Notes: generated from the letters alone by a model not told the origin. 64,000 nucleotides of DNA from a virus (IMGVR_UViG_3300017917_002108:82605-146604), one strand, 5' to 3'; shown: positions 14,281 through 36,887, counted from the stretch's first letter. Translations and numbers: made by a program.

Positions 14281-14318
14281 CATAAATATATACGTGGTTA
14301 ATTAGGAACACGTATATA
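14281..14318 (+). promoter_or_regulatory. T4-like late promoter (cATAAATA) overlapping a 10-bp inverted repeat that encloses the RBS
   Basis: ATAAATA 14282-14288; TATATACGTG 14287-14296 / CACGTATATA 14309-14318; AGGA in loop; ATG 14319. Confidence 0.7.
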
Positions 14319-14603
14319 ATGAGCAGACCAAAACCCAAGGTTATTCTTGAATACGCAAATAAGGAAACTTACAAGGTCGAACAGATACTTGAAAGTGAGG
14401 CCATATGGGCTGTATTCTACAAGGGTCAACCGTTTAATTTGAAAAGCGGTAGTCTCTTGGCATCATACCCTGGTCCAAAATACAAGAAAGTAAGTTTTAG
14501 TAATCCCGGACATGCACACAATCTAGCTAAGAAACTAAACAGATTATTTAAAACCAAAGACTTTTCTGTATATAAACTGAACCAAGGTGAGAGAATAGAA
14601 TAA
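14319..14603 (+). CDS. basic hypothetical protein (likely late)
   Basis: 94 aa, Lys-rich, follows late promoter. Confidence 0.75.
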   Translation: MSRPKPKVILEYANKETYKVEQILESEAIWAVFYKGQPFNLKSGSLLASYPGPKYKKVSFSNPGHAHNLAKKLNRLFKTKDFSVYKLNQGERIE

Positions 14604-14604
14604 T

Positions 14605-14994
14605 ATGAATATCAAGGATACCTATACAACGGTATTCCTAAGAGCGGCAGGACAACCGTTTACAGAGCAAACTGTTAAAAGTCTCAAGGGAAAATGGTGG
14701 TACAGTACCAGAGATAAAGAAGTTGGCGGCCTTCGCATAACTGACGATTGCTTGCAATTTGTCCGTGATAATGCTAAAATAAAAACATATGAAATCGATC
14801 TACCCAAGGATCTTATTCTTGGCCCGCAGGTCTTATTATGGTTGGATCAATTTTTAAATTCACCATTTCATTTAACCAAAAAAAATATCACAGTGTTGTC
14901 AGAAAAAACTGCTTTTGAACTGTATTTGTTTTCAGGTGATGTGAAAAAAATGGGTTCTGCAAAGGCAATGAATAAAAGACTTAATCAAGAATAA
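14605..14994 (+). CDS. hypothetical protein
   Basis: 129-aa ORF. Confidence 0.75.
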   Translation: MNIKDTYTTVFLRAAGQPFTEQTVKSLKGKWWYSTRDKEVGGLRITDDCLQFVRDNAKIKTYEIDLPKDLILGPQVLLWLDQFLNSPFHLTKKNITVLSEKTAFELYLFSGDVKKMGSAKAMNKRLNQE

Positions 14995-15015
14995 GCCCTT
15001 AAATTTTTCACACAA

Positions 15016-15022
15016 GTAAATA
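15016..15022 (+). promoter_or_regulatory. T4-like late promoter (GTAAATA)
   Basis: Intergenic TAAATA, 7 nt before ATG 15030. Confidence 0.55.
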
Positions 15023-15029
15023 ATTCGCT

Positions 15030-15302
15030 ATGATTGAAATTAATGCCCTAGACGTACTTAATCGTAGAAAAGTTGATTATATTCCTAATCATTTTTCTAG
15101 AATGAAGGTCAACGACAGCGAAGCCAATATTGTCGAAACTGAATTTTGGATTAAGAATAAGCTACGAGGACGATATTTTTTACTTAAAATTCCTGCTATT
15201 TCGCATGATGGAAAATTAAAAAATAATACTGTCGTGGGATTTGAAAATCATAAAGAGCTAACGTATTTTATGTTGGCCTGTCCACATTTAAGGAGAACAT
15301 GA
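15030..15302 (+). CDS. hypothetical protein
   Basis: 90-aa ORF. Confidence 0.7.
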   Translation: MIEINALDVLNRRKVDYIPNHFSRMKVNDSEANIVETEFWIKNKLRGRYFLLKIPAISHDGKLKNNTVVGFENHKELTYFMLACPHLRRT

Positions 15303-15532
15303 TGACTGACGAAATTAAACAAGAAACAGCACCAGCACCTGAAACCGCTGCACCGCAAGCTGCCGCACCACAGGGTCCAGATTTAAATCTAAGCGATCTA
15401 TCTGCACTAAGAAGTATCGTAGATGTAGCTAGTCAAAGAGGAGCATTCAAAGCGGGAGAATTAGAATCAGTAGGTAAAGTTTACAATAAACTTTCAAACT
15501 TTCTAGACTCTGTCGCTAAGAAGGAGGCTTAA
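15299..15532 (+). CDS. hypothetical protein with Ala/Pro-rich N-terminus
   Basis: AAGGAG RBS; IVDVASQRGAFK motif. Confidence 0.75.
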   Translation: MMTDEIKQETAPAPETAAPQAAAPQGPDLNLSDLSALRSIVDVASQRGAFKAGELESVGKVYNKLSNFLDSVAKKEA

Positions 15533-15534
15533 TC

Positions 15535-16188
15535 ATGGCCGCTCCTTTAAAACACATAGGTAGAATTAAATCAAATAACAGCAAAGTTCTAACAATTTTT
15601 AGAACATTACCCGGCGAATCAAATATGGCCTTAGTATTGCCAGTAGCCAATCTTTCAGATTCGTATCACGATTCTGTGATGAAATTAGTAGAAACCGAAC
15701 AGGCTCAAGAAGCATTTGAGTTTGGAGAAATTATGTTCACCAGAACATTTCCAGATGGAAGACCTATGTTACAGGCCATGCAGGTAGATAACCAACTTCT
15801 ACGAGTTCCTACAGATACTGTTGAGATGATTCCTACTCCAGGCAGCAGTATTGATCTTCATCAATTAAATATCCTGATCGCAGAACAAAAAAACTGTGCG
15901 GTTGACGATCTTTATACATTCGTTTCCGGTGCACCTAAAAAAACTGATGCGGTAGTAGAAGATGTGGCCAAAATAGAGAATCTAGGCAGAGATGTAGGTG
16001 AACCGAATATTCCTAAACCATTAAAGGCTAAAGAAAATGAAGTTTTATCAGATCTTGATCTAGCCAAATCATATCGTAGCCAAGCAGATGCCATGTATAA
16101 AGAGGCTGCAAGATTACGTAAACAAGCAGATGAATTAGATCCGCCAAAAAAGAAAACTGTAAAGGCAGCCGAAACCGCCGATGCCTAA
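15535..16188 (+). CDS. hypothetical protein
   Basis: 217 aa, AAGGAGG RBS. Confidence 0.8.
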   Translation: MAAPLKHIGRIKSNNSKVLTIFRTLPGESNMALVLPVANLSDSYHDSVMKLVETEQAQEAFEFGEIMFTRTFPDGRPMLQAMQVDNQLLRVPTDTVEMIPTPGSSIDLHQLNILIAEQKNCAVDDLYTFVSGAPKKTDAVVEDVAKIENLGRDVGEPNIPKPLKAKENEVLSDLDLAKSYRSQADAMYKEAARLRKQADELDPPKKKTVKAAETADA

Positions 16189-16489
16189 GCCTTTATTTAA
16201 ACCTCCAAAACATTTAGTACAAGAATGGCCGGAGGTATTTGAAGATCTCTACATGAATACTATGCCTGTACACTATCTAGAAAGTGTAAGGTTAGAATTT
16301 CAGAATGGAAGAGTATGGGAAATAAATGTTGCTGATCAACTGAATCTTTCAGCCAGCGAAATAATTGCCGATAGATTAATAGAGACCTTTGCAGAATATA
16401 AAGATGATATCAAGAAAATTGATTTTAAAATCAATATACTAAAATTAAAAGACGATATACAAAGTCAATCAAATAATATATTGAACTAA
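16181..16489 (+). CDS. hypothetical protein
   Basis: 102-aa ORF overlapping upstream stop. Confidence 0.7.
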   Translation: MPKPLFKPPKHLVQEWPEVFEDLYMNTMPVHYLESVRLEFQNGRVWEINVADQLNLSASEIIADRLIETFAEYKDDIKKIDFKINILKLKDDIQSQSNNILN

Positions 16490-16490
16490 T

Positions 16491-18110
16491 GTGGACAAAA
16501 AAATCAAATTTTACGATAAGAATTTTCATAGTATCAGAGAGACGATTAATGAAATAAGCGATTCGTTCTGTGCTGCAAAATGGCTTCAGGTCAGCTTACA
16601 TCTTACCAACGGTAAAACTCATAGTTGCTATCACCCCCCTACACATGATATTGACAGGCAGGATCTAGAAATAGATCCTGCTTCTTTGCATAATACCAAA
16701 CAAAAATTCATAGAAAGAAAAATGATGCTGGAAGGTCAAAGACCTCCGGGCTGCGAATATTGTTGGAAGATAGAAGATTCAGGACATATCAGTGATAGGT
16801 ATTATCGCAGCAGCGAACATTGGGCGGTTGATAAAATAGAATATATAAAAAATCTGCCCTATGATTTTTCTATCAATCCCACATATGTTGAAGTCAATTT
16901 TAATCAGACCTGCAATTTTAAATGTTGTTATTGTAGTCCTCATCTAAGCAGCACATGGCAAGAAGAGGTCGAAGAATATGGTCCTTATAAGATAAATTCT
17001 TCATTACATAATCACATAGCTACGTTACAAAATGCAGGACTCATGCCTACAGGATCAGCAACAAAAGATAATCCGTATTTAGAATCTTTCTGGAAATGGT
17101 GGCCTGATTTATATCCCAATCTAAAAGTATTTCGCATGACCGGTGGAGAACCGTTAATGGATGCAAATACTTTTAAAGTTTTAGATTATGTTATAGAGCA
17201 TCCTAATAAAGAATTAGAATTAAGTGTTACATCTAACCTTTGCCCGCCAAAAGAACTTTTTGAAAAATTCTTGACAAAAGTTAAACAATTAGATTGTGTA
17301 GACCATCGGGTAGAATGTTATGTTCCAGATCCTAAAAACGGAAAGCCTTGGCAAGAATGGCCGCACTATATTATTGGTGCAAAGAACAAAGAATATCACA
17401 GAAGCAATTTACCTTCCATAGAACGAAATGATATACCAGAGACCTTTGAAGGCATAGGTCATGCAAAAGAAAACGGAAGTTTTACATATCTATATTCTTA
17501 TAAAGATTTTGCCTGCAAACATTTTACATTATATGTAAGCCTAGATAGTGTTGATTCTCAAGCAGAATATATCAGAAATGGTTTAAATTTTTCTACCCTA
17601 GAATATAACATAGATAAATTTCTTTCAGAAACAGAGAATACTAGTATTAGTTTTATCAACACATTTAATCGATTAAGTATTCCCGGATTACGAAAATATT
17701 TAGAATTGATGTTAAAGTTACGTAGAAAATTTTCTGGATCTGCTCAGAGATTTAAAGGAACCAAGAGATTCCAGCGTATATGGTTTGATATTCCTTTATT
17801 ACGTAAACCTGAATGGTTAAGTGTATTGAATTGCGGTCCAGAAGAAATAACAGAATTAAAGAATATTCTTATCTGGATGGAAGAAAACAAGAGCAGTAAA
17901 TATGAGAAAAATTTACAAGGTTTTAGACCCTACGAAATTGAGAAGCTGAAAAGAAACATAGACGTTATAGAAAATAACAAATTTGATGAGATAACTAAAT
18001 TAAATAACAACAAAAATTTTAAAGAATTTTTCACCGAACACGATAAAAGAAGAAATACTAATTTTGAAATCAGTTTTCCAGAATTAGCAGAATGGTATAG
18101 GAATTTATAA
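16491..18110 (+). CDS. radical SAM protein with N-terminal Twitch/SPASM-like Cys module
   Basis: CNFKCCYC, TGGEP, TSN; N-terminal FCAAKW..SCYH..CEYCW. Confidence 0.85.
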   Translation: MDKKIKFYDKNFHSIRETINEISDSFCAAKWLQVSLHLTNGKTHSCYHPPTHDIDRQDLEIDPASLHNTKQKFIERKMMLEGQRPPGCEYCWKIEDSGHISDRYYRSSEHWAVDKIEYIKNLPYDFSINPTYVEVNFNQTCNFKCCYCSPHLSSTWQEEVEEYGPYKINSSLHNHIATLQNAGLMPTGSATKDNPYLESFWKWWPDLYPNLKVFRMTGGEPLMDANTFKVLDYVIEHPNKELELSVTSNLCPPKELFEKFLTKVKQLDCVDHRVECYVPDPKNGKPWQEWPHYIIGAKNKEYHRSNLPSIERNDIPETFEGIGHAKENGSFTYLYSYKDFACKHFTLYVSLDSVDSQAEYIRNGLNFSTLEYNIDKFLSETENTSISFINTFNRLSIPGLRKYLELMLKLRRKFSGSAQRFKGTKRFQRIWFDIPLLRKPEWLSVLNCGPEEITELKNILIWMEENKSSKYEKNLQGFRPYEIEKLKRNIDVIENNKFDEITKLNNNKNFKEFFTEHDKRRNTNFEISFPELAEWYRNL

Positions 18111-19501
18111 TGGGTACAAAATACATAGAGATTATTAAAGACACCAGAGACCAACTAAACACCGTAGGCAAAGGATTTTGTTTGGCTAAATGGAATATGG
18201 AAACTCTGTATCTTCATATGGGGGATAACCATAGTTGCTACCATCCCAGACCTCATAAAATTGATAAATCTCTACTGGAATCTAATCCTAGTGCCCTACA
18301 CAATACTCCGTGGAAGAAAGAGCAAAGAAAACTTATGTTAGAGGGCGGAAGGCCAGAAGAATGTTATTACTGTTGGAACATCGAAGATCTACCCGGAGAT
18401 CATATCAGCGACAGAATGAAACACAGCTCAAATCATATTCAAACATTAAAACAGATAGTAGATGCTGGATGGGAAGCAGATTACAATCCAAGGCATCTAG
18501 AAGTTAGTTTTGGTAACGGATGTAATTTTAGATGCGGATATTGCTGTCCTCAGGCCAGCAGTTCATGGATGGAAGAGATTAAAAAACACGGTAACTATGA
18601 TATAACTTATAATCAATACGGTATTGATTTTTTAGGATATAGTGAATTTTATAATAAAGATGATCCGAATCCTTATGTAGATGCGTTCTGGAAATGGTGG
18701 CCTGATCTACAAAAAGATCTCAAGGTTCTTAGGATAACAGGCGGAGAACCGTTAATGAATCCTAATACATTTAATCTCTTAGAGATGTTAGAAAAAGAAC
18801 CTGCTCCGCATCTGCAGATACATGTGAATAGTAATCTAGGTGTGACTCACCGGTTGGTTGTGAAATTAGTAGATCATGTTAAAAGATTGCTTGAAAAGAA
18901 AGCGATAAAAGATTTTAAATTGTATACAAGCATAGACACATGGGGTCCTCAGGCAGAGTATATCAGAACAAATTTAGATATCAAACTGTGGGAACAGAAC
19001 CTAAGCTATTACTTAGATAATCTTCCTCAACAAGATATAAGTTTTATGATCACGTTCAACGTACTTACGGTGACTAACTTTAGAAATTTATTAGAAAAAA
19101 TATTAGAACTTAGAACAAAATTTAAAGGTTCTCCCTGGCATCAAAGAGTACAATTCGATACACCATATTTAAAAGAGCCCCCTCATTGGATGATTAATAT
19201 ACTTCCAGAGTCATTCAACACCTATATGGATCAGCACCTCGAGTTCATCAAAGACAATCTTATTAGAGACCCGGGAGACATCGGATTTAACGAAATAGAA
19301 TACGAAGTGTTCAAAAGAGTTAGAGACTATATGAAAGAAAATCCAGTTGATCCTAAAAAAATCTCTCAAGGACGTAGAGATTTCTATGTGTTCTTTAATG
19401 AAACTGATAAACGCAACGGTACAAAGTTTCACGAAGTATTTCCAGAGTACATAGAATTCATGGAACTTTGTAAACAAGAATATTTAAATTATGACAAATA
19501 A
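18110..19501 (+). CDS. radical SAM protein with N-terminal Twitch/SPASM-like Cys module
   Basis: CNFRCGYC, TGGEP, NSN, SID; N-terminal FCLAKW..SCYH..CYYCW. Confidence 0.85.
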   Translation: MGTKYIEIIKDTRDQLNTVGKGFCLAKWNMETLYLHMGDNHSCYHPRPHKIDKSLLESNPSALHNTPWKKEQRKLMLEGGRPEECYYCWNIEDLPGDHISDRMKHSSNHIQTLKQIVDAGWEADYNPRHLEVSFGNGCNFRCGYCCPQASSSWMEEIKKHGNYDITYNQYGIDFLGYSEFYNKDDPNPYVDAFWKWWPDLQKDLKVLRITGGEPLMNPNTFNLLEMLEKEPAPHLQIHVNSNLGVTHRLVVKLVDHVKRLLEKKAIKDFKLYTSIDTWGPQAEYIRTNLDIKLWEQNLSYYLDNLPQQDISFMITFNVLTVTNFRNLLEKILELRTKFKGSPWHQRVQFDTPYLKEPPHWMINILPESFNTYMDQHLEFIKDNLIRDPGDIGFNEIEYEVFKRVRDYMKENPVDPKKISQGRRDFYVFFNETDKRNGTKFHEVFPEYIEFMELCKQEYLNYDK

Positions 19502-20660
19502 AACGCCTATATACTGTGTAAATGCATATCATACTCTAAGTATTAATTCGGTTGGCACCTGTAAAAGTTGCTGTATGGCAGACGGTGGAACTGAATGGGG
19601 TCAAAGAGTATCCGATACACCGTTAGATGTTATATGGGAAGATCCTTATTTCTTGGATATAAGGAAGTCTCTTGCAGAAGGAATAAGACATCCTGCATGT
19701 AAGAAATGTTGGGAAGAAGAGGATGCTGGAAGACATAGTAAACGTATAAGAGATAACGATAAAAAATTTGGATTTACGCCCTCTGATAAGATCAAGATAG
19801 TTGAACTCAATCTAGGAAATACCTGTAATATACAATGTCGTACATGCCACCCTTACAGCAGTAGCAAATGGCTCAAAGAATATTATGTGACAAATAATAT
19901 AGATATTACTTACAAAAAATTTCTAACCAATGCAAAGGTCTATAACGACTGCTGGGAAGACGATAGCCTGGTATGGTCAGAACTAAACAAGATCGGTAAA
20001 GATATAGAAAGAATAGAATTTTATGGCGGTGAACCTTTCCTTTTAAAACAACAATGGAAATTTTTACAAAAATGTGTAGATGAAGGTTGGTCAAAAAATC
20101 AAATGATACATTACAATACCAACGGTACTACATGGCACGAAGAGAATATTAAATTATTCGAACATTTCAAATATGTGGATGTAGGTTTTAGTATAGATGG
20201 TGTGGGCGAACAATTTGAATTTATGCGATATCTGGCCAAATGGGATGTTGTTTTAGAGAATTTACAAAAAGCTAAAAAATTTCAAGAAGGCAAATCAAAT
20301 GTTTGGTTTGACATCTGTCATACTATCAGTTCATTGAATGTTTACTACATACCAGAATTCATAGAATATTTTGGTAAAGATTGGCGTATATATCTTAATC
20401 TTGTTCATTGGCCTGACTATTATGCCATCACCATCTTTCCAGATGCTATCAAAGAATTAATTATAAAAAAATTAGATTCAATTAGTGAAATAGATCATAA
20501 TCAAATTGTTGGAATTAAAAATCTTGTGGCCAACGGAAAATTTGATCCGAAAATCTGGGAAGAATTCAAAAACAGAATCACAATCCATGACGAATTTAGA
20601 GGACAAGATTATTATAAAACATTTCCTGAATTTGGATCGATTATAAGGAATCACGGATGA
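19491..20660 (+). CDS. radical SAM protein with N-terminal Twitch/SPASM-like Cys module
   Basis: CNIQCRTC, GGEP, NTNG, SIDG; N-terminal YC..SCC..CKKCW. Confidence 0.85.
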   Translation: MTNKTPIYCVNAYHTLSINSVGTCKSCCMADGGTEWGQRVSDTPLDVIWEDPYFLDIRKSLAEGIRHPACKKCWEEEDAGRHSKRIRDNDKKFGFTPSDKIKIVELNLGNTCNIQCRTCHPYSSSKWLKEYYVTNNIDITYKKFLTNAKVYNDCWEDDSLVWSELNKIGKDIERIEFYGGEPFLLKQQWKFLQKCVDEGWSKNQMIHYNTNGTTWHEENIKLFEHFKYVDVGFSIDGVGEQFEFMRYLAKWDVVLENLQKAKKFQEGKSNVWFDICHTISSLNVYYIPEFIEYFGKDWRIYLNLVHWPDYYAITIFPDAIKELIIKKLDSISEIDHNQIVGIKNLVANGKFDPKIWEEFKNRITIHDEFRGQDYYKTFPEFGSIIRNHG

Positions 20661-21895
20661 AATTTTGGACTACAGATAATGTCATACAAGTACATGTAGA
20701 ATTATCAACATTTTGTAATGCCGCATGTCCTAAGTGTCCTAGGTATATTGATGGAACGATGGTTCTACGTCCAGGATTAGAACTTGAACAAATTACCTTA
20801 GAAAAATTTAAAAAATATTTTAATGAAACATTCATAAGGCAGACCACTCAATGGTTATTCTGTGGTACACACGGAGATCCAATGATGGCCAAGGACGCCA
20901 TAGACATATTTGAATATTTGTACTCTATTAATAATGATCTTCAAATCAGAATCAATACCAATGGCGGGATGCGCAATGAGAAAGACTGGAGACGATTAGG
21001 AGAGCTTTCTAAGAAAGTTAATAATAGATTTACCATAACTTTCAGCATTGATGGTCTAGAAGATACAAATCATTTATATCGCAGAAATGTTGATTGGGCC
21101 ACGCTAATTAGAAATGTTAAATCTTATATAAATGCTGGCGGTAGGGCCACTTGGGATTTTTTAGTTTTTAAGCATAATCAACATCAGATCGAAGAAGCAA
21201 AACAATTAGCAGCAGATTGGGGCTTTTCGGAGTTCGCTCCTAAAAGAGCATTAGGTTTTGAGTATGACGGAAATATAAGAGATGTGCCTGTATGGGACGA
21301 AAATGGCAATTACACCCATACATTAGAAGCATCTACAAATCCGGAATTTACCAATCATACACCTGATCAAATTAAATCTGTGGTCAAAATGCCCACAGAA
21401 AGTCTAGTTACATTTTATAAAAATAATAGAGATATACTTAAAGAAAAACATATCAACGAAATGAAACAATGGGATGGATTAAATTGGAACGACCAAATAT
21501 ACGATTATTCCAAGTATAACGAAAAAGTTATAAATTGCAAATCAAACATTGTTTCTATGCATAAAGGAAAAGTTATCTACGGTTCAGAGATTTTCTTAAC
21601 GGCAGGCGGTATTGTTGGTCCATGCTGTTATATAGGTACTCAGTTCGATGTTACCTATAGAACTGTAGAAGTACATCAATTACAAAAAAAGATATATGAG
21701 TACGGAGTTGATAATTTTAATCTAAACAAAAAAACTCTTCACGATATCCTCGAAGAAGGTCATCTAAACAATTTGTATGCTTCGTCGTGGGATAAACAAA
21801 ATAATCAAAGAATATTATATTGTTCGCATACTTGCGGTGAAAATAGTCATATCGATCGAATCTGGAACGAAGAAGCTCGTGCTAAGTTCGATTAG
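20657..21895 (+). CDS. radical SAM protein with C-terminal Twitch-like module
   Basis: CNAACPKC, G..GDP, NTNGG, FSIDG; C-terminal PCCY..CSHTC. Confidence 0.85.
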   Translation: MKFWTTDNVIQVHVELSTFCNAACPKCPRYIDGTMVLRPGLELEQITLEKFKKYFNETFIRQTTQWLFCGTHGDPMMAKDAIDIFEYLYSINNDLQIRINTNGGMRNEKDWRRLGELSKKVNNRFTITFSIDGLEDTNHLYRRNVDWATLIRNVKSYINAGGRATWDFLVFKHNQHQIEEAKQLAADWGFSEFAPKRALGFEYDGNIRDVPVWDENGNYTHTLEASTNPEFTNHTPDQIKSVVKMPTESLVTFYKNNRDILKEKHINEMKQWDGLNWNDQIYDYSKYNEKVINCKSNIVSMHKGKVIYGSEIFLTAGGIVGPCCYIGTQFDVTYRTVEVHQLQKKIYEYGVDNFNLNKKTLHDILEEGHLNNLYASSWDKQNNQRILYCSHTCGENSHIDRIWNEEARAKFD

Positions 21896-23882
21896 CGTTT
21901 TCTAATTCGAACTGTTGATATAACCAATCAAAATCGTTGATCTTTCTTAATTGATCAGGATTGTCTAAATTATCTATACCAAACTTCTTTCCTGCTCTAG
22001 CACCCGATATGGCATACTCCCCGTAAGGCATATTCTTTCCCACAATACACCAGATATCTATTCTATCATCTGTTTCTTCTTGATAATTTCTATCAATCGA
22101 TTTACTGACTAGTTTACAGACTTCTCTGAAAGCAGATTTCCATGTATTGAAGGGATCTGTATTAAATGCAGTATAGTTGCTGACTTCTTTCATAATACGA
22201 ATTTTTTCGCTTATACTGGTGGTCATATCAACACTATTCATATTCATATCTAACACAGCCTGCTTAGGTAGCAACTTGACTCCACCATAACCGTATTCTA
22301 ATCCGTTAATAGGATTTCTACTATGCCAGATATGTACTATATCTCTATCCCATTTGTGTAATAATAAATCAAATTTGAATTCGTCAATGATATCAGCGTC
22401 GCCGTCGACTACATAAAACATAGGTGTAGTTGACAATTTCGCAGCTTCTCTATGAGCATTGTGAATTCCTTTAACTCCGTGAACACGCTTTGCTCTAGGA
22501 AATCTAGATATTAATTTATCGTAGTTATAATCCGCATTTGGTTCATTGTAACTAATAAAAATTATGTCATAGGGCTTAAGTTCACTGGCAACGATGTCGT
22601 GCTCTTTTTTATCAATTAGATATCTATGGTCAATCTCTTTAGCGGTTACAGGAATATTTTTAGACACCAACATAAGACCGCTGTATTTGATTTCACTCAC
22701 ATCTCGATTCAGAAAAACATGATTAAATTTTCTTTCGCTGCTGTTGTGAGAAAATAATGAATTAAAATCAAAATCTTCTAAAGGTTGAATTTCATTAGGG
22801 ATAATCCAAAATAATTCAGTTCTTGTTTTTTCGCAAGCTGAAAGATAATCTTGATAACTTTCAATTTCAAATCGATCAAACGGTATTGTTTGAGAACAAA
22901 CGATGTTGTGTTCTTTCTTATCGATAAAAAATCTATGATCAAACTCTTTTTTAGAGACGGGTTTCTCAGTGGTAAAAAGAACTATACCACTGACATATGA
23001 TTCTTCTTCGACAACTTTATTTTTGAAAATATGATTAATAGATCTATCAAAATCGTATTCACCATTAAACGGATCGTAGTACAAATCAAATATATCTGTA
23101 TTATTGACTTCGACATCTTCCCACACGCACCAGAAAAGAGGTTGTTGTTCTTGAGCAATTATTTTTAAATAGTCTTCATAATTTTTAATCGTATACCTAT
23201 TATATCGATACCTGCTTGCGACAGAATCGTATTCTTTTTTATTGATTAAAAATCGATGATCAATTTCTTTCTTTGATGCTGGCTTATTTTTTGAAAATAA
23301 TACTGGACCGCTTACAAAAGATTCAGTGGTCATGCATAGATTTTTAAAAACATGATTTTCATTTCTATCATAGCTGTTATGATGACTAAAATAGATTTTG
23401 AAAATCTGCTCATTTATAATTTCTGTATTGTTCCATATCGCCCAAAACATGTCGGTACTAGATGTATCCAATGCTCGAATATAATCATCATAATTTCCTA
23501 TCTTAAAAACTTCGTATTTTTTAGGACGGCTAGCAACAACATTGAATTCTTTCTTATTAATATAAAATCTATGATTAAATTCTTTTTGTGTGATTTTGGT
23601 TTCTTTGGAAAATAGCCCGATACCATCATAGCTGTCCCCGTTCAACCAAAGATGTATGTAGCTCTCATCCCATTTAGATACTCTATGATCAAAATTAAAT
23701 GTATTTTCGACAACTAGATCGTCCCATACTATCCAAAAAAATCTAGTAAAGGCCTTGTTCCTAATATCTTCGAATGATGCAACATTTTCTATTTTTTGAG
23801 CAGATGGAAATCTCGAACGAAACTGTTGCCAATCGTTATCATTGATTTCTTTTTTGCTGGTATAAAATATATCGTAAATCAT
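21882..23882 (-). CDS. GT-A-like glycosyltransferase with four N-terminal tandem degenerate domains
   Basis: C-terminal YDIIFISYNEPNAD..VVDGDA (DxD)..YGYGGVKL..WKSAFRE; repeats each ending KE..HR..I.KKE...V.S. Confidence 0.65.
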   Translation of the reverse strand: MIYDIFYTSKKEINDNDWQQFRSRFPSAQKIENVASFEDIRNKAFTRFFWIVWDDLVVENTFNFDHRVSKWDESYIHLWLNGDSYDGIGLFSKETKITQKEFNHRFYINKKEFNVVASRPKKYEVFKIGNYDDYIRALDTSSTDMFWAIWNNTEIINEQIFKIYFSHHNSYDRNENHVFKNLCMTTESFVSGPVLFSKNKPASKKEIDHRFLINKKEYDSVASRYRYNRYTIKNYEDYLKIIAQEQQPLFWCVWEDVEVNNTDIFDLYYDPFNGEYDFDRSINHIFKNKVVEEESYVSGIVLFTTEKPVSKKEFDHRFFIDKKEHNIVCSQTIPFDRFEIESYQDYLSACEKTRTELFWIIPNEIQPLEDFDFNSLFSHNSSERKFNHVFLNRDVSEIKYSGLMLVSKNIPVTAKEIDHRYLIDKKEHDIVASELKPYDIIFISYNEPNADYNYDKLISRFPRAKRVHGVKGIHNAHREAAKLSTTPMFYVVDGDADIIDEFKFDLLLHKWDRDIVHIWHSRNPINGLEYGYGGVKLLPKQAVLDMNMNSVDMTTSISEKIRIMKEVSNYTAFNTDPFNTWKSAFREVCKLVSKSIDRNYQEETDDRIDIWCIVGKNMPYGEYAISGARAGKKFGIDNLDNPDQLRKINDFDWLYQQFELENANRT
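22572..23882 (-). repeat. four ~105-120-aa tandem protein-level repeats
   Basis: Recurring FW.(V/I)W...H.F.N...G..LF.K...KE(F/I).HR..I.KKE motif seen four times. Confidence 0.8.
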
Positions 23883-24757
23883 TTTAGATATGTGTTTGTT
23901 AACTTAATGGTTTCGTTATACAACTCTAATGTATATTTGCTTTGACGAGAATCTAACCAAGGATAATCTAATCCTAATTCTGTTTTAATTTTAACGGCAA
24001 GGTCCTGGGCATCTTCTTCTACAAAGGTATGATTAACCTTTGTTTCATATATCTCTCTTAACATTTCAAAATCTCTAACATCGACATAGTTCCAATCTGT
24101 ACAATTAGTCATCCATGTTCCCATTCGAGCACCAAGAATAGCATACTTCCCATTTTCTTCATGTGCGCCTATAGTTGACCAAATCTTTAATCTATGAAGA
24201 TTATGCCACCATATGCGTTCTTTAATTTCATCTGCGGGAATTCTTACCCCGTCAAGCAGAGTCATTTTGACACCTTCACGGAATCCTGCTCGCCATGCTT
24301 GGAATGGACTGCCTGTTATAACTGTATCACTATACGACTCTTTAAATTGTACGTATCCATCTTCCCAACAAAAATCTACTTGAGCTCTGTCAGTATCACT
24401 GGCTTCATGAGTCTTCATATTGAGTATGAAATCTTTTTTCCATATTTTTACTCCGCCATTCCCATACAATAGACCATTTAATCGATTTCTTCCTAACCAA
24501 CTATAGACCTGTATCTTGGGATCAGAAAAATCTAATTCTAAATTAAAAAATTTATTGTCTACAATATTATCTGCGTCTATGGTAATTACCCAATCTGTTT
24601 CGGATGACTGAGCCGCTGCCTTATGGGCTGCGTCGCTGCCTTTTACTCCGTGAATGCGTTTAGCCCAAGGTACCTTATTACATAGATCCGCATAATGCAG
24701 ATCTGCATTAGGTTCGTCGTAACTCAAAAAGAATAGATCTAACTCAACAGCTTTCAT
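23879..24757 (-). CDS. GT-A-like glycosyltransferase (paralogue of the downstream gene's catalytic domain)
   Basis: FLSYDEPNAD, RIHGVKG, IDADN (DxD), YGNGGVK, WRAGFRE. Confidence 0.7.
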   Translation of the reverse strand: MKAVELDLFFLSYDEPNADLHYADLCNKVPWAKRIHGVKGSDAAHKAAAQSSETDWVITIDADNIVDNKFFNLELDFSDPKIQVYSWLGRNRLNGLLYGNGGVKIWKKDFILNMKTHEASDTDRAQVDFCWEDGYVQFKESYSDTVITGSPFQAWRAGFREGVKMTLLDGVRIPADEIKERIWWHNLHRLKIWSTIGAHEENGKYAILGARMGTWMTNCTDWNYVDVRDFEMLREIYETKVNHTFVEEDAQDLAVKIKTELGLDYPWLDSRQSKYTLELYNETIKLTNTYLK

Positions 24758-25344
24758 AGTTTTTCAAAAATATAATTATCAAAAATTCTTCGTGTATAAA
24801 GACTAAATTTTTCAGTCGGTGCTATCTTTACATGTTTTGGCCTATCGATAAGATCGCCTATTCTTAGACTGATCATTTCTAATAAAATATTAGGATCATT
24901 ATATCCTGTTACTAGAAATATCATTTCAGTTTCACCCGACCAAATAAATTTAGTGTGTTTAGGATCTATTGAAAAAATTAACTCTTGATCTTCCTCGATA
25001 TATTGTACCAATATGTCAGGATCTTGCACAGTAGACCATTGTTTTTCTATAATTCTATGTAACACATCATCTATTTTTATAAGATTATGGGTGGCAAATT
25101 TACTTAATTTAAAAAACTTTTTGGTCGGAATATCTACTCTATAGGAAAACAGACTTTCTTGACCAGTCAAAATTTTATGTGCTTCTTCTTCATCTATTTT
25201 GATTTTATCTAAAAGATCTATACTGCCCTTATGAGGAATAACCGACGTGACGAATCCGTCCTCGTTGAAAATAGCATAAAATTCAGTAGGTGTTGATTCT
25301 TGGATCAATATCCATTCGTCAAAATCCATTAGTTCTTGTTCCAT
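24754..25344 (-). CDS. hypothetical protein in glycosyltransferase cassette
   Basis: 196-aa ORF overlapping both neighbours. Confidence 0.7.
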   Translation of the reverse strand: MEQELMDFDEWILIQESTPTEFYAIFNEDGFVTSVIPHKGSIDLLDKIKIDEEEAHKILTGQESLFSYRVDIPTKKFFKLSKFATHNLIKIDDVLHRIIEKQWSTVQDPDILVQYIEEDQELIFSIDPKHTKFIWSGETEMIFLVTGYNDPNILLEMISLRIGDLIDRPKHVKIAPTEKFSLYTRRIFDNYIFEKL

Positions 25345-26171
25345 GCTATGTCCTCTAATAAACTAATAATTTCGTCTGTGATTAAATCCTTCTCTACATA
25401 ATGAACTAAATCGGTCTGATTATAATTACCGATTTTGAGTTCGCCTGTGGGTTTGAAATAAAAACCTGCATGTTCTGTAACACGATCTGCCGACCAAGGC
25501 CAATTCTGTACCATAGGCTTGAGATGAACTACCTTAGGAAAATCTAAATCATAAGATATTTCGTCCGTGATATCTAGAAGTTTTGATGATAAAGCGAATG
25601 CCTCGTCAGTTCCTACAATTTTAGGTTTCAATTTATCTAAAAATATATTTTTAAATTCTAAAGGATTAGAAATTATAAATCTTCCCAATTCAAAAAATTC
25701 TCTAGAGATAGTGCTGTCTTTTTTAAAATATGTATAAAGAGAATATAGATTAGGTAATTCATTGGCCGTAAAAGTTTTTCTATAAAAATCGTCTGATATT
25801 ATTTCGCCTCTATATGTATAAGATTTATTGCATATATACAATTCGCAATTTTCTACAAAATAATCAACCCAATGACTATAATCTCTAATAAAGATCATAT
25901 CGGCATCAATACAAATTGTATGTTCGAAAGGAGATAATTGATCCATCCAAGATCTACCATTCCAAAAAGTCTGCTCTCTCCATTCGATTACATGATCAAA
26001 CACCCAAGGACTTTTTATTTTATCTAGTTGACTTTTATCATCTATAACTAAAGCTACTTTATCATAGCCTTCTTTTTGTGTATTTTTAATACTGAGTGCG
26101 GCAGCATAGGCACACTTTAGATAATCAAAATCTTGATGAGCAGAGACAATAATCAAATAACCAAAGTTCAT
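25329..26171 (-). CDS. GT8-like glycosyltransferase
   Basis: DY..CA..AA.SIK, SPFEHTICIDADM (DxD), TDEAFAL, VHLK. Confidence 0.7.
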   Translation of the reverse strand: MNFGYLIIVSAHQDFDYLKCAYAAALSIKNTQKEGYDKVALVIDDKSQLDKIKSPWVFDHVIEWREQTFWNGRSWMDQLSPFEHTICIDADMIFIRDYSHWVDYFVENCELYICNKSYTYRGEIISDDFYRKTFTANELPNLYSLYTYFKKDSTISREFFELGRFIISNPLEFKNIFLDKLKPKIVGTDEAFALSSKLLDITDEISYDLDFPKVVHLKPMVQNWPWSADRVTEHAGFYFKPTGELKIGNYNQTDLVHYVEKDLITDEIISLLEDIAWNKN

Positions 26172-27028
26172 ATAATTTCCATTAGTCTCTCTTTGTTTCT
26201 AATTATACTTTGTTTATTCATAACATGTATATCGATTCCTTCGGTAGCTGCCGCCCAAAAACTACCGCAATCGTTGGGTTTATCAATTAAATGTACAAGT
26301 TTATTTCCATCCACCGATAATAAAATATCTTTATCATAAACAGACAGCACAGGAGGTAATGAATATATCTGATCTACTTCGTATCCGTTCATAATATGAC
26401 GGGCCACACTAAATGCTATATCATTTCTAAACTGTCTGGGATCAAATCTATAAAGATCTGCATAGTACCTATAATTGTCTCTGACAAAGTTTACCAAGTG
26501 AAAAAAGAATTTACTTTCTTGACTTTTATCGAACATAACAGTTGTGGCCCAAAACATATGAATACCTGTCTCCGAGACTCTACGATCTAAAACGCCAATG
26601 CGTTCTCCTGTTATATCATTTATGGTTTGACCCATGATTACTGGCGAATCAACATTCCAGTATTCATTTAGGCTATTTGAAAAAATTAAAAAATCAGAAT
26701 CGATCAAAAGTGTTTTATCATAGGGACTTAGGTCCCATGCTGAATATCTATTAGAATTTTCAAATGGAATGTTCTGGCTATCGAATCCGTCGTGTAGTTT
26801 TCTATAATTTTTTGTTACCGGTTTTTCTACTTCTATTATCTTGTCAAATATTTCTAATGCTTTATCTTTATTTCCAGACTCGGTCATCCATTCAAGGGTA
26901 TACTTGTCAGTTACTAGGCTGACCGGAACATTTAAATTTTTCTTAGCCAACCCTCCGGCTATAATCGCCATTAATCCGTAATCCACACTAGGATTGTTAT
27001 GAGCGAAGATCAATACACCGTTGTTCAT
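26168..27028 (-). CDS. GT8-like glycosyltransferase
   Basis: GVLIFAHN, SPYDKTLLIDSDF (DxD), RNDIAFSVA, HVMNK. Confidence 0.7.
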   Translation of the reverse strand: MNNGVLIFAHNNPSVDYGLMAIIAGGLAKKNLNVPVSLVTDKYTLEWMTESGNKDKALEIFDKIIEVEKPVTKNYRKLHDGFDSQNIPFENSNRYSAWDLSPYDKTLLIDSDFLIFSNSLNEYWNVDSPVIMGQTINDITGERIGVLDRRVSETGIHMFWATTVMFDKSQESKFFFHLVNFVRDNYRYYADLYRFDPRQFRNDIAFSVARHIMNGYEVDQIYSLPPVLSVYDKDILLSVDGNKLVHLIDKPNDCGSFWAAATEGIDIHVMNKQSIIRNKERLMEII

Positions 27029-27375
27029 AGATCAAGTAATTTTTCAACTGTTCTGCTATTTTTAATTTTTTGATATTCTTCGTAATATTCGTAGGTAGAT
27101 GTAAAATACCTATCAAGTATTTCATCTCTAAATTTGGTAAGATCGGGGATTAATATAGGATTGTCGTTTTGATCTACTAGGGGAACATTTTCGGTTCGAT
27201 CCTGATCAATTAACATCTGTACAAAAACTATCAATGATCGATCTATTTTAAATAGACCTCCTTGATAGCCGTAGGTTAATTTAGCATTTATTTTTTCTTT
27301 TAGAGTTTTTCTCTGGATAGACAATGTCTGTCTATAATTGGAAAAGTCTAACGCCTTTTTTAGACGCTCGTCCAT
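27025..27375 (-). CDS. hypothetical protein (possible tail-fibre assembly/accessory protein)
   Basis: 116 aa; AGGAG RBS; follows fibre genes. Confidence 0.7.
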   Translation of the reverse strand: MDERLKKALDFSNYRQTLSIQRKTLKEKINAKLTYGYQGGLFKIDRSLIVFVQMLIDQDRTENVPLVDQNDNPILIPDLTKFRDEILDRYFTSTYEYYEEYQKIKNSRTVEKLLDL

Positions 27376-27380
27376 ACCGT

Positions 27381-27423
27381 CTCCTATAAAATACGCACAT
27401 TATTTATGTGGGATAAAATAGGA
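27381..27423 (-). promoter_or_regulatory. T4-like late promoter (cATAAATA) in the loop of a hairpin that pairs the RBS
   Basis: Minus strand: TCCTAT...CACAT-AAATA-ATGTG...ATAGGAG; TATTTAT at 27401-27407 on +. Confidence 0.6.
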
Positions 27424-27432
27424 AGAAAAAAT

Positions 27433-28350
27433 TTAACTACCGGTAATAGACGAAATGACTGTTGAACTTGGGCCCGAAACGGCAAAACTACCCGAAGTTC
27501 CGGTGGGCTGTAGAACTCCATAGGCTCTAACCGAGTCTACTGTAAGCGAAAGTGTACCATCGACTAGATCGCCCGGAGCAGGAAGTCCGGGATCAGAATA
27601 ATTGTCTATCCAGGTAATTCTAAATGTGATAACATTAGCAGTACCTGTTGAATTATTGGCTGTATTGCAAAGAGCTTCTAGTCTCCAATTATTGGCACTA
27701 TAAGGGCTGCTAGAAGATAATGAATAAAATTGCTGATAACTAGATGTCAACGAATAAAAATTTACGGCACCTGTATTACCACCAAACGGCTGAACTCCTG
27801 CCGAAGATAATAAATTACTCCAAGCAGTATTTTGTGCCACCGAAGTTCCACCTGTCCTCGAACTTGCAAATCTTATTTTGCCACCTGCATTGAAAAAATT
27901 TCTAGCCTTTTCAGCATCGGAAAAAGACACTGTAACTGTACAAGACAAAGAATTTGACCAAGATGCAGATGTAGATTGAGATCCCAGTGCATCTGTTACA
28001 TATTGTCCAGCACCAATATCAAATCTATTAGTTTGTGTTGTTGATGCTAGAGTATCATACTGAGTGTTAGGATTTCCGGCACCGTATCTAATTACATCTG
28101 TATTCTGTACTGTAACCATAGAAGTTGGAGCAGTACCGGTTTGATGCAACAGTGCATTGTAGATGTCGTATCGTAATTGATCCCATTGGGTTTTTGTAAT
28201 TTGATTTCCTACAGACACCGCAGAACTAAAAGTAGTTTGACCATATCCGTAACTAGCGTCTGCACCTGAATACGAAGTACTCATCACTCTAATAATCTTA
28301 CTTCTTATAGAATTATAATCCGTAGCCGAAATTAAATCACCGATTGCCAT
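27433..28350 (-). CDS. virion structural protein (Ser/Thr/Gly-rich)
   Basis: 305 aa, S/T/G-rich, in tail operon. Confidence 0.65.
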   Translation of the reverse strand: MAIGDLISATDYNSIRSKIIRVMSTSYSGADASYGYGQTTFSSAVSVGNQITKTQWDQLRYDIYNALLHQTGTAPTSMVTVQNTDVIRYGAGNPNTQYDTLASTTQTNRFDIGAGQYVTDALGSQSTSASWSNSLSCTVTVSFSDAEKARNFFNAGGKIRFASSRTGGTSVAQNTAWSNLLSSAGVQPFGGNTGAVNFYSLTSSYQQFYSLSSSSPYSANNWRLEALCNTANNSTGTANVITFRITWIDNYSDPGLPAPGDLVDGTLSLTVDSVRAYGVLQPTGTSGSFAVSGPSSTVISSITGS

Positions 28351-30115: not shown

Positions 30116-30137
30116 TGATCAACTCCATTATAATAGT

Positions 30138-30144
30138 TATTTAT
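30138..30144 (-). promoter_or_regulatory. T4-like late promoter (gATAAATA)
   Basis: Intergenic, upstream of GGAG RBS and ATG 30115. Confidence 0.6.
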
Positions 30145-30159
30145 CGGAAATAATATCTT

Positions 30160-32250: not shown

Positions 32251-32274
32251 AATCGCCCCTTGAATATTCGTTCA

Positions 32275-34113: not shown

Positions 34114-34123
34114 AGTTTATACC

Positions 34124-36880: not shown

Positions 36881-36887
36881 TATTTAT
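36881..36887 (-). promoter_or_regulatory. T4-like late promoter (aATAAATA) overlapping stop codon of giant gene
   Basis: 7 nt before ATG 36873. Confidence 0.6.

What the first reader, a model, noticed from the sequence alone, without database searches (positions are those of the whole stretch)
15016..27423. Candidate late-expressed virion-decoration system: four tandem radical SAM enzymes converging on four glycosyltransferases at the end of the tail-fibre operon
Seen: the four radical SAM genes (16491-21895) abut each other and the upstream small genes with gaps of 2 nt or less, or overlaps. The nearest upstream promoter-like elements are T4-late-type TAAATA boxes (14282, 15016). On the other strand, two GT8-like and two GT-A-like genes follow the fibre genes behind their own ATAAATA box. 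The two units overlap by 14 bp at their 3' ends. Known: Twitch/SPASM radical SAM enzymes include sugar and aminocyclitol dehydrogenases/epimerases (BtrN-type) and protein-modifying maturases, and virion glycosylation is documented in some actinophages and giant viruses. Inference: the GTs build a glycan on Ser/Thr-rich fibre or baseplate proteins and the radical SAM enzymes tailor the sugars or protein. That would be an uncharacterised phage surface-modification pathway, distinct from the early DNA-modification cluster.
Basis: partly seen in the sequence, partly recalled or inferred. Interest (0 to 1): 0.85.

Follow-up and report, generated by a model that had tools for sequence, protein, structure and literature searches.

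The report
Fibre-linked sugar-transferase and radical-enzyme module
A giant uncultured water phage carries, at the end of its tail-fibre genes, four sugar-transferring enzymes and a fixed set of four radical SAM enzymes that travel together, and are sometimes fused, in hundreds of related phages; they most likely build and edit a sugar coat, probably on the phage's own fibres, but the target is untested.

Summary
In detail: four abutting radical SAM (rSAM) genes (16491-21895, +) meet four glycosyltransferase-like genes (21882-27028, -) tail to tail with a 14-bp overlap, downstream of the fibre genes.

RS1-3 belong to NCBIfam NF033640 (N-terminal twitch rSAM, function unknown). RS4 is the non-permuted form. 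GT292 and the C-terminal part of GT666 are GT-A fold enzymes with an invariant DxD. GT280 and GT286 are distant glycogenin/GT8-like paralogs.

In 54 of 81 related loci, including the cultured Ralstonia phage RsoM2USA, the order fibre, h116, GT8-like x2, h196, GT-A, rSAM array lies on one strand, often with overlapping stop and start codons. The convergent layout here is a lineage-specific inversion.

Natural fusion proteins join N-twitch rSAM domains to GT292-type, GT2 and GT7-like transferases, a carbamoyltransferase and a GNAT. The rSAM-GT link is therefore well supported.

Late expression rests only on conserved, strongly depleted ATAAATA boxes. The target (virion fibre, or host surface as published for pelagimyophages) is not shown. 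rSAM arrays also occur without the GT cassette in another phage family. The small upstream genes are passengers.

First-stage notes of this scan describe similar GT/rSAM gene sets in other genomes.

The parts
14282..14288 (+). ATAAATA late-promoter-like box, 37 nt upstream of the gene at 14319. It is the only such box upstream of the rSAM array on this strand.
   Evidence: 5 boxes against 37 expected. A box 34-40 nt upstream of the homologous gene is kept in L005, L013, L027 and L042. No + strand terminator-like site lies between it and 21895.
14319..16489 (+). Six small genes (94, 129, 90, 77, 217 and 102 aa) co-directional with the rSAM array. They are passengers, not part of the module.
   Evidence: In L013-type relatives they stay with the exonuclease/QueE block on the strand opposite the rSAM array. 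No family hits except phrog_15894, of unknown function.
16491..18110 (+). RS1: N-terminal-twitch radical SAM enzyme of the CYH subtype, with an insertion.
   Evidence: NF033640 at 296 bits in two stretches. C141x3C145x2C148 and N-terminal Cys 27, 46, 88, 91.
18110..19501 (+). RS2: N-terminal-twitch radical SAM enzyme of the CYH subtype. This is the core rSAM type that follows the GT-A gene in relatives.
   Evidence: NF033640 at 307 bits. 286 relatives in IMG/VR. The gene right after GT292 is of the CYH type in 22 of 23 distinct arrangements.
19491..20660 (+). RS3: N-terminal-twitch radical SAM enzyme of the CC subtype.
20657..21895 (+). RS4: radical SAM enzyme with the core first and a twitch-like Cys domain at the C-terminus, the non-permuted counterpart of RS1-3.
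   Evidence: C20x3C24x2C27. Conserved C294, C323/324, C389 and C393. The C-terminal region aligns to the RS3 N-terminal twitch, hhalign probability 93.5%, E 2e-7. NF033640 gives only 47 bits.
21882..23882 (-). GT666: four tandem repeats of about 105 aa followed by a GT292-like GT-A catalytic domain (about 435-666).
   Evidence: Residues 439-631 are 37% identical to GT292, E 4e-34. Repeats match each other at E 9e-32 to 8e-14 and the catalytic DxD region weakly at E 0.002. Repeat number varies among homologs of 223-874 aa.
23879..24757 (-). GT292: GT-A fold glycosyltransferase with a C-terminal helical domain.
24754..25344 (-). h196: conserved protein of unknown function, always between the GT8-like pair and GT292.
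   Evidence: Position conserved in all lineages, including RsoM2USA gp351. Only viral look-alikes, no family.
25329..26171 (-). GT280: distant glycogenin/GT8-like glycosyltransferase.
   Evidence: The family profile hits glycogenin at E 7e-6. Paralog of GT286, hhalign probability 99.9%, E 1e-31. D89xD91 conserved.
26168..27028 (-). GT286: distant glycogenin/GT8-like glycosyltransferase.
   Evidence: Pfam GT8 E 1.6e-4, 21.8 bits against a cut-off of 24.3. 3 of 27 family members hit GT8. D110 and D112 invariant.
27025..27375 (-). h116: first gene of the GT operon, unknown function, always between a fibre-type gene and the GT8-like pair.
   Evidence: Homolog in RsoM2USA gp354.
27401..27407 (-). 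ATAAATA late-promoter-like box 32 nt upstream of h116.
   Evidence: A box 32-34 nt upstream of h116 is conserved in L013, L027 and L042.
27433..28350 (-). f305: fibre-associated protein with 27.5% Ser+Thr, and the candidate acceptor.
   Evidence: Directly upstream of h116 in most loci. In RsoM2USA gp355 it is fused to the N-terminal domain shared by the fibres. It is replaced by other fibre-type genes in L032 and L038. Composition.
28361..36199 (-). Four tail-fibre paralogs (584, 696, 612 and 691 aa) that share an N-terminal domain of about 90 aa. They are the context and possible acceptors.
   Evidence: PHROG tail-fibre hits and a Peptidase_G2 intramolecular-chaperone domain. N-terminal sequences.

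Best explanation
This is one conserved accessory module of a clade of giant (Rak2/XacN1/Atu_ph07-like) myophages, attached to the 3' end of the tail-fibre operon. It comprises a fibre-associated protein (f305), two small conserved proteins (h116, h196), two distant GT8-like and two GT-A glycosyltransferases, and a stereotyped quartet of radical SAM enzymes: two CYH-type N-twitch, one CC-type N-twitch and one C-terminal-twitch.

Shown here: the genes are real and the fold or family assignments hold. The rSAM genes and GT genes are inherited, arranged and even fused together, so they act in one pathway.

Inferred: all components are soluble and are transcribed from T4-type late promoters (ATAAATA). 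The GTs assemble a short glycan in the cytoplasm on a phage-encoded fibre or fibre-associated protein before virion assembly. The rSAM enzymes use 5'-deoxyadenosyl radicals, with an auxiliary Fe-S cluster, to edit the sugars. Plausible reactions are oxidation, epimerisation, deoxygenation or C-C chemistry of the BtrN/DesII/BlsE kind. The edited positions would then be glycosylated, carbamoylated or acetylated.

The convergent arrangement in this window results from inversion of the rSAM block. After inversion the block is read from another late-type promoter at 14282.
For: Families and folds: RS1-3 are NF033640 members at 296-307 bits. RS4 is their non-permuted relative. GT292 has a GT-A fold with an invariant DxD, and its best Foldseek hit is the PBCV-1 capsid-glycosylating A64R. 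GT280 and GT286 are glycogenin-like paralogs.

Linkage: in 54 of 81 loci the GT cassette and rSAM array are on the same strand, in about 30 of them with a 4-nt stop/start overlap between GT292 and the first rSAM. The 10 loci of the window's lineage are inverted. The array order is stereotyped. The same colinear set, gp355 to gp348, lies in Ralstonia phage RsoM2USA. That set adjoins ORFs 356, 359 and 361, which mass spectrometry confirmed as virion proteins (PMC8504454).

Fusion proteins join N-twitch rSAM domains to several tailoring enzymes:
- GT292 domain(s) + N-twitch rSAM in 9 proteins (8, P0358).
- N-twitch rSAM + Pfam GT2, E 2e-25 (P0260).
- Glyco_transf_7C + rSAM (P0285, confirmed; P0289, P0290 and P0334 carry the same Pfam family in the precomputed annotation).
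- rSAM + carbamoyltransferase (P0449).
- GNAT + rSAM (P0439).

Sugar context: related clusters contain a UDP-glucose/GDP-mannose dehydrogenase and carbamoyltransferases.

Late timing: ATAAATA is about 7-fold depleted, sits upstream of ORFs and is conserved upstream of the h116 and fibre genes.

Other: no module protein has a membrane segment. f305 is 27.5% Ser+Thr.
Against: No result here shows a glycan on any virion protein, and no expression data could be obtained.

The only paper found that treats similar islands reads the GT8-type GTs as host O-chain modifiers that block co-infection (PMC7029224).

f305 is not universal. In L032 and L038 other fibre-type genes precede h116.

rSAM arrays of 4-8 genes occur in a different phage family of about 165 kb. 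That family has no GT292-family gene on contigs estimated 66-71% complete, and only a distant GT8-like gene about 40 kb away.

Most loci with both parts belong to one phage clade, so some of the synteny is shared ancestry.

GT-A-fold neighbours also include nucleotidyltransferases such as IspD and MobA.
Confidence: 0.5

Rival explanations
1. Host-surface remodelling. The GTs, with rSAM-tailored sugars, modify the infected cell's LPS core, O-chain or capsule. Other phages, or the progeny themselves, then no longer adsorb to infected cells and debris.
For: This is the published reading for GT8-rich 'host recognition clusters' with radical SAM cassettes in pelagimyophages (PMC7029224). Characterised GT8 enzymes include LPS-core transferases (general knowledge). 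LPS-type nucleotide-sugar genes occur in related clusters.
Against: The same cassette with the same gene order is kept in phages of very different habitats (soil Ralstonia phage and aquatic contigs) and always travels with a phage fibre-type gene and h116. That fits a phage-encoded acceptor better than host-specific glycans. The promoter boxes are late-type, not early. No membrane-embedded Gtr-, Wzx- or Wzy-like component is present, and all proteins are soluble. None of these points is decisive.
Confidence: 0.22
2. The radical SAM enzymes act on the fibre protein itself in a RiPP-like manner (cross-links, epimerisation, or oxidation of Ser/Cys as in anSME). The GTs then glycosylate the modified residues.
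For: anSME, CteB, SkfB and SuiB are among the best structural neighbours of RS3. Twitch/SPASM enzymes are mostly peptide or protein maturases (NCBIfam side hits). One relative is fused to a subtilase fragment (P0350). Fibre-adjacent Asp/Arg hydroxylases are annotated in Pelagibacter phage Mosig.
Against: No RRE/PqqD-like leader-binding domain was detected. The fusion partners are overwhelmingly group-transfer enzymes typical of sugar tailoring: GTs, a carbamoyltransferase and a GNAT. Arrays exist far from any fibre gene in the second phage family.
Confidence: 0.15
3. The cluster makes a diffusible glycosylated small molecule (aminoglycoside- or nucleoside-like), or a hypermodified DNA base, not a surface glycan.
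For: BlsE, DesII and viperin-type rSAMs, carbamoyltransferases and aminotransferases are hallmarks of such pathways. The same phage has a separate deazaguanine cluster that includes a GT (earlier finding e1-5703179).
Against: The cluster sits at the end of the fibre operon on the structural strand in nearly all relatives, behind late-type boxes. It contains no scaffold-forming enzyme and no DNA-transglycosylase or kinase. The paper on glycosylated 5-hydroxycytosine mentions neither radical SAM enzymes nor these GT types.
Confidence: 0.08

Closest known systems
Chlorovirus PBCV-1 A64R and related virus-encoded, cytoplasmic glycosylation of virion proteins. Also mycobacteriophage virion glycosylation
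   Same: Virus-encoded soluble GT-A enzymes with DxD. A64R is the best Foldseek match of GT292, and a Che8 GT is among the viral matches. The genes lie next to structural genes.
   Different: Sequence identity is only about 15%. No radical SAM enzymes are known in those systems. The acceptor here is unproven. The host is a Gram-negative-type bacterium's jumbo myophage, not an alga or a mycobacterium.
'Host recognition cluster' of pelagimyophages (Zaragoza-Solas et al. 2020, PMC7029224)
   Same: A hypervariable island next to tail fibres that holds GT8-type GTs and 'radical SAM cassettes'. Some of the rSAM arrays found here sit in pelagimyophage-like contigs beside the curli genes that paper describes.
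   Different: This window's phage belongs to another clade: its baseplate wedge is 34-36% identical to those of Atu_ph07, SCTP-2 and CBB. That paper gives no family, order or fusion analysis, and it proposes host O-chain modification.
NCBIfam NF033640 (N_Twi_rSAM, twitch domain-containing radical SAM protein)
   Same: RS1-3 score 296-307 bits against a cut-off of 170.
   Different: The family has no assigned function, and no paper on it was found. RS4 is outside it.
Twitch or auxiliary-cluster radical SAM enzymes acting on sugars and nucleotides: BtrN, DesII, BlsE, viperin
   Different: Peptide maturases score equally well. The twitch domain is permuted to the N-terminus. No substrate is known.
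Glycogenin / GT8 retaining glycosyltransferases
   Same: The GT280 family profile matches the glycogenin N-terminal nucleotide-sugar-binding half, including DxD, at E 7e-6. GT286 gives a weak Pfam GT8 hit.
   Different: Both are below Pfam's cut-off. The C-terminal halves do not match. No self-glucosylation or acceptor is known.

Membership tests
Radical SAM superfamily (PF04055) | CX3CX2C cluster motif and a score over Pfam's gathering cut-off (29.5 bits) | tested here: met
   The motif is present in all four proteins. RS2, RS3 and RS4 score 33.7, 38.5 and 40.4 bits. RS1 scores 21.1 bits, below the cut-off, but is carried by NF033640 at 296 bits.
NCBIfam NF033640 N_Twi_rSAM | Whole-protein score of at least 170 bits, with the twitch Cys domain N-terminal to the core | tested here: met
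   RS1 296, RS2 307 and RS3 302 bits. Four invariant N-terminal Cys across 40 paralogs. RS4 is not a member (47 bits).
SPASM/twitch auxiliary Fe-S domain | The conserved Cys set actually binds a second [4Fe-4S] cluster | not testable with these tools
   Only conservation of the Cys residues is shown. Pfam SPASM scores 18.9 bits on RS3 residues 9-74, below the cut-off of 21.5.
GT-A fold glycosyltransferases (GT2-like) | Rossmann-like GT-A fold with a DxD motif at the end of beta-4 | tested here: met
Pfam GT2 families (PF00535, PF13704) | Score over the gathering cut-off | tested here: not met
   GT292 scores 17 bits against 27.5 for PF13704. A few distant family members carry PF00535 or PF13641.
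GT8 (PF01501) | Score over the gathering cut-off (24.3 bits) | tested here: not met
   GT286 scores 21.8 bits. 3 of 27 GT286-family and 0 of 27 GT280-family members hit at E <= 0.01. Profile-level similarity to glycogenin is E 7e-6 for GT280 and 0.05 for GT286.
T4-type late promoter | TATAAATA -10 element read by a gp55-type sigma factor | tested here: inconclusive
   The exact TATAAATA is absent from the window. The ATAAATA core is depleted about 7-fold, lies 14-37 nt upstream of ORF starts in the window (8-40 nt across the genome) and is conserved in relatives. Transcription itself could not be tested.
Virus-encoded virion glycosylation system | A glycan demonstrably attached to a virion protein by the viral GTs | not testable with these tools
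   Only gene context and fold evidence are available.
Pelagimyophage host recognition cluster | Island between VrlC and gp14 of a pelagimyophage or cyanomyophage-type genome | tested here: not met
   The window's baseplate wedge groups with Rak2/Atu_ph07-type jumbo phages. Only the GT-less rSAM arrays lie in pelagimyophage-like contigs. Homology of the 4585-aa protein to VrlC was not tested.

The most novel reading that the evidence does not exclude
The quartet of permuted and non-permuted twitch radical SAM enzymes carries out radical chemistry directly on a protein-bound glycan of the phage's fibres, in complex with the GT-A enzyme it is often fused to. This would create sugars or linkages not known from any virus, and would make receptor-binding fibres chemically diversifiable without changing their sequence.
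Probability: 0.3. Interest if true: 0.85.

Novelty: new variant of a known kind. Interest (0 to 1): 0.62.

Why it matters
Virus-encoded glycosylation of virions is known from chloroviruses, giant viruses and some actinophages, but not from T4-like or jumbo phages of Gram-negative bacteria, and never with radical SAM enzymes.

The module is abundant in aquatic viromes. RS2 has 286 relatives in IMG/VR. The rSAM family has 824 clusters at 50% identity with E <= 1e-30. The GT292 family has at least 8000 members.

Its rSAM family (NF033640) has no known substrate. The GT, carbamoyltransferase and GNAT fusions give the first concrete clue that the family works on sugars.

One cultured phage, RsoM2USA, carries a minimal version with a single rSAM. 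This makes the question directly testable. The answer bears on how large phages tune adsorption, stability or immune and defence evasion through chemistry rather than sequence.

Tried and rejected
So I have no gene context for the metagenomic homologs, no expression data and no complex test.
- A broad rSAM alignment (A4) was too divergent for the genome scan. The narrower one (A5) used a single peptide pattern and found only two true hits, both MAG contigs carrying phage-type arrays. This says little about bacterial occurrence.
- The fold search of RS3 gave a flat list of rSAM cores and does not separate sugar from peptide substrates.
- f305, h116 and h196 have no family, no solved relative and only viral look-alikes.
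- The apparent 600-nt insertion in RS2 of the closest relatives was an artefact: hits to the adjacent paralog had been merged.
- The 69 long relatives of about 800-900 aa carry an N-terminal helical repeat region that is not GT-like.
- The DNA-hypermodification reading was rejected as the main explanation on context, and the glycosylated 5-hydroxycytosine paper has no link to these families.
- No paper on NF033640 function was found.

Full report
**What is in the sequence.** On the + strand, four genes run from 16491 to 21895 with a 1-nt gap and overlaps of 1, 11 and 4 nt. They are preceded without gaps by six small genes starting at 14319. On the - strand, six tightly coupled genes (27375 down to 21882) follow the fibre genes. 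The two units overlap by 14 bp at their stop codons. The window is the right-hand 64 kb of a single 146.6-kb IMG/VR record that CheckV rates 41% complete. Its baseplate wedge protein is 34-36% identical to those of Atu_ph07, SCTP-2, XaC1 and CBB. So the phage is a member of the Rak2/XacN1-like giant myophages, not a pelagi- or cyanomyophage.

**The glycosyltransferase genes.** Every Pfam hit is below threshold, so I tested the assignments.
- GT292, modelled from 28 homologs (pLDDT 88.7), has a GT-A domain at residues 1-150 and a helical C-terminal domain.
- Its best Foldseek match is A64R, the PBCV-1 enzyme that glycosylates the major capsid protein. RmlT, the peptide S-glycosyltransferases SunS and ThuS, and cellulose and hyaluronan synthases follow.
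- GT666 ends in a GT292-like domain (37% identity, E 4e-34). It begins with four tandem repeats of about 105 aa (E 9e-32 to 8e-14) that are faintly related to the DxD region.
- GT280 and GT286 are paralogs (hhalign 99.9%, E 1e-31). The GT280 family profile matches the nucleotide-sugar-binding half of glycogenin at E 7e-6. They are distant GT8-like enzymes, not members by Pfam's criterion.
- No protein of the module has a membrane segment.

**Do the two units belong together?** This is the strongest result.
- RS2 has 286 relatives in IMG/VR. In the 80 loci fetched, plus RsoM2USA, the GT cassette and the rSAM array lie on the same strand in 54. In about 30 of these, the GT292 stop overlaps the first rSAM start by 4 nt.
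- They are convergent only in the 10 loci of the window's own lineage.
- The sister lineage (L013) has the order fibre, f305, h116, GT286, GT280, h196, GT292, GT666, then four rSAM genes on one strand. That unit converges on the small genes, which stay with the exonuclease/QueE block.
- The window's arrangement is therefore a simple inversion of the rSAM block, and the small genes 15030-16489 are passengers.
- The arrays are stereotyped: CYH-type N-twitch (usually two), CC-type N-twitch, then C-twitch, exactly as RS1-RS4 here, with expansions up to eight genes.
- Among 50,697 deposited phage genomes, only Ralstonia phage RsoM2USA has homologs of RS2, GT286 and GT292. There, gp355 (fibre N-domain fused to an f305-like domain) to gp348 form one colinear same-strand set with a single rSAM between two GT-A paralogs. 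The set directly adjoins virion proteins confirmed by mass spectrometry (PMC8504454).

**Fusion proteins give an independent line of evidence.**
- Among the long relatives, nine proteins are GT292-domain(s) + N-twitch rSAM.
- One is N-twitch rSAM + a bona fide Pfam GT2 domain (E 2e-25).
- One scanned here (P0285) is Glyco_transf_7C + rSAM. Three more (P0289, P0290, P0334) carry the same Pfam family in precomputed annotation.
- One is rSAM + carbamoyltransferase, and one is GNAT + rSAM.
- The partners are the typical group-transfer enzymes of sugar tailoring.
- Related clusters also contain a UDP-glucose/GDP-mannose dehydrogenase and carbamoyltransferases.

**Timing.**
- The exact T4 late consensus TATAAATA is absent from the window, against 10.8 expected.
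- Its core ATAAATA occurs 5 times against 37.4 +/- 5.5 expected, each 14-37 nt upstream of an ORF start.
- Genome-wide, 17 of the 21 copies lie 8-40 nt upstream of an ORF.
- Boxes precede h116 (27401), the fibre gene f584, and the small-gene operon that now carries the rSAM array (14282).
- The h116 and 14319-type boxes are kept at the same distance in diverged relatives.
- No + strand terminator-like site separates 14282 from the rSAM genes.
- The 15016 element is only GTAAATAA here, though relatives have a perfect box there.
- This is good motif-level support for late expression, but no transcript data could be obtained.

- The acceptor is unknown. f305 (27.5% Ser+Thr) precedes h116 in most loci, but other fibre-type genes replace it in L032 and L038.
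- rSAM arrays of 4-8 genes also occur in a second phage family of about 165 kb. There they sit beside CsgG/curlin, FecR, a CHASE2-cyclase, PhoH, a methyltransferase-like gene and a carbamoyltransferase.
- Those contigs lack the jumbo-type baseplate wedge and any GT292-family gene. They have only a distant GT8-like gene about 40 kb away.
- They match the pelagimyophages of Zaragoza-Solas et al. That paper already noted GT8 genes and 'radical SAM cassettes' in the fibre-linked host recognition cluster and proposed host O-chain modification (PMC7029224).
- That rival cannot be excluded. I rank it lower for three reasons. The cassette keeps its composition across phages of very different habitats and always travels with a phage fibre-type gene. 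It has late-type boxes. It has no membrane component.

**Verdict.** Virion-fibre glycosylation with radical sugar editing is the best but unproven reading (about 0.5). Host-surface remodelling (about 0.2) and direct protein modification (about 0.15) are live rivals. The kind of system, virus-encoded glycosylation, is known. The fixed radical SAM quartet and its fusions to transferases are new and give NF033640 its first functional lead. First-stage notes of this scan describe similar GT/rSAM gene sets in other genomes.

Noticed in passing
window 1-64000 and whole genome: TATAAATA is absent from the window (10.8 expected). ATAAATA is about 7-fold depleted, and 17 of its 21 genomic copies lie 8-40 nt upstream of an ORF. 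It looks like the phage's late promoter, with strong counter-selection elsewhere.
   Followed up: partly
window 28361-36199 (-): Four consecutive tail-fibre paralogs (584, 696, 612 and 691 aa) share an N-terminal domain of about 90 aa (GKNYxGYGE...NENF..LLENF) and have different C-terminal parts. Two end in a Peptidase_G2-type intramolecular chaperone.
   Followed up: partly
window 36884-50641 (-): A single 4585-aa ORF lies between the baseplate wedge gene and the fibre genes. It may be the counterpart of the VrlC-type giant baseplate protein of cyano- and pelagimyophages. This was not tested.
   Followed up: no
L012:115-6290, also L047 and L058: Contigs with rSAM arrays but no GT cassette carry CsgG, a curlin-repeat protein, a FecR-domain protein and a CHASE2-adenylate/guanylate cyclase just upstream. 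This is the phage curli operon described for pelagimyophages, here next to a cyclase.
   Followed up: partly
proteins P0241-P0340 and P0341-P0485: Many natural fusions of N-twitch rSAM domains exist. There are 24 double or triple rSAM-rSAM proteins, plus fusions to a carbamoyltransferase (P0449), a GNAT (P0439) and a subtilase fragment (P0350). A class of 69 proteins of about 800-900 aa has an N-terminal helical repeat region of unknown function.
   Followed up: partly
proteins P0121-P0240: The GT292 family is very large, with at least 8000 metagenomic proteins. Its top members are forms of about 535 aa that score about twice the single-domain value, as if two catalytic domains were in tandem. 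Almost none has a Pfam annotation.
   Followed up: no
L087 (G003:C1:73017-73730): A GT292-family match interrupted by three stop codons (1 TAG, 2 TAA), about 12 kb from that contig's rSAM array. It may be a decaying copy of the GT gene.
   Followed up: no
L013:13812-15407 (+): In the sister lineage a 531-aa ORF follows RS4 on the same strand. It contains a GCSYTAGDE motif reminiscent of SGNH/GDSL esterases or acyltransferases, and it is absent from the window.
   Followed up: no
L104 (Pelagibacter phage Mosig 50464-74958): Next to Mosig's tail fibres lies a 20-kb island. It holds two Asp/Arg hydroxylases, a TauD-type dioxygenase, three small rSAMs, a DegT-type sugar aminotransferase, a carbamoyltransferase, methyltransferases and nitroreductases. 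It is another fibre-adjacent tailoring island with different enzymes.
   Followed up: no
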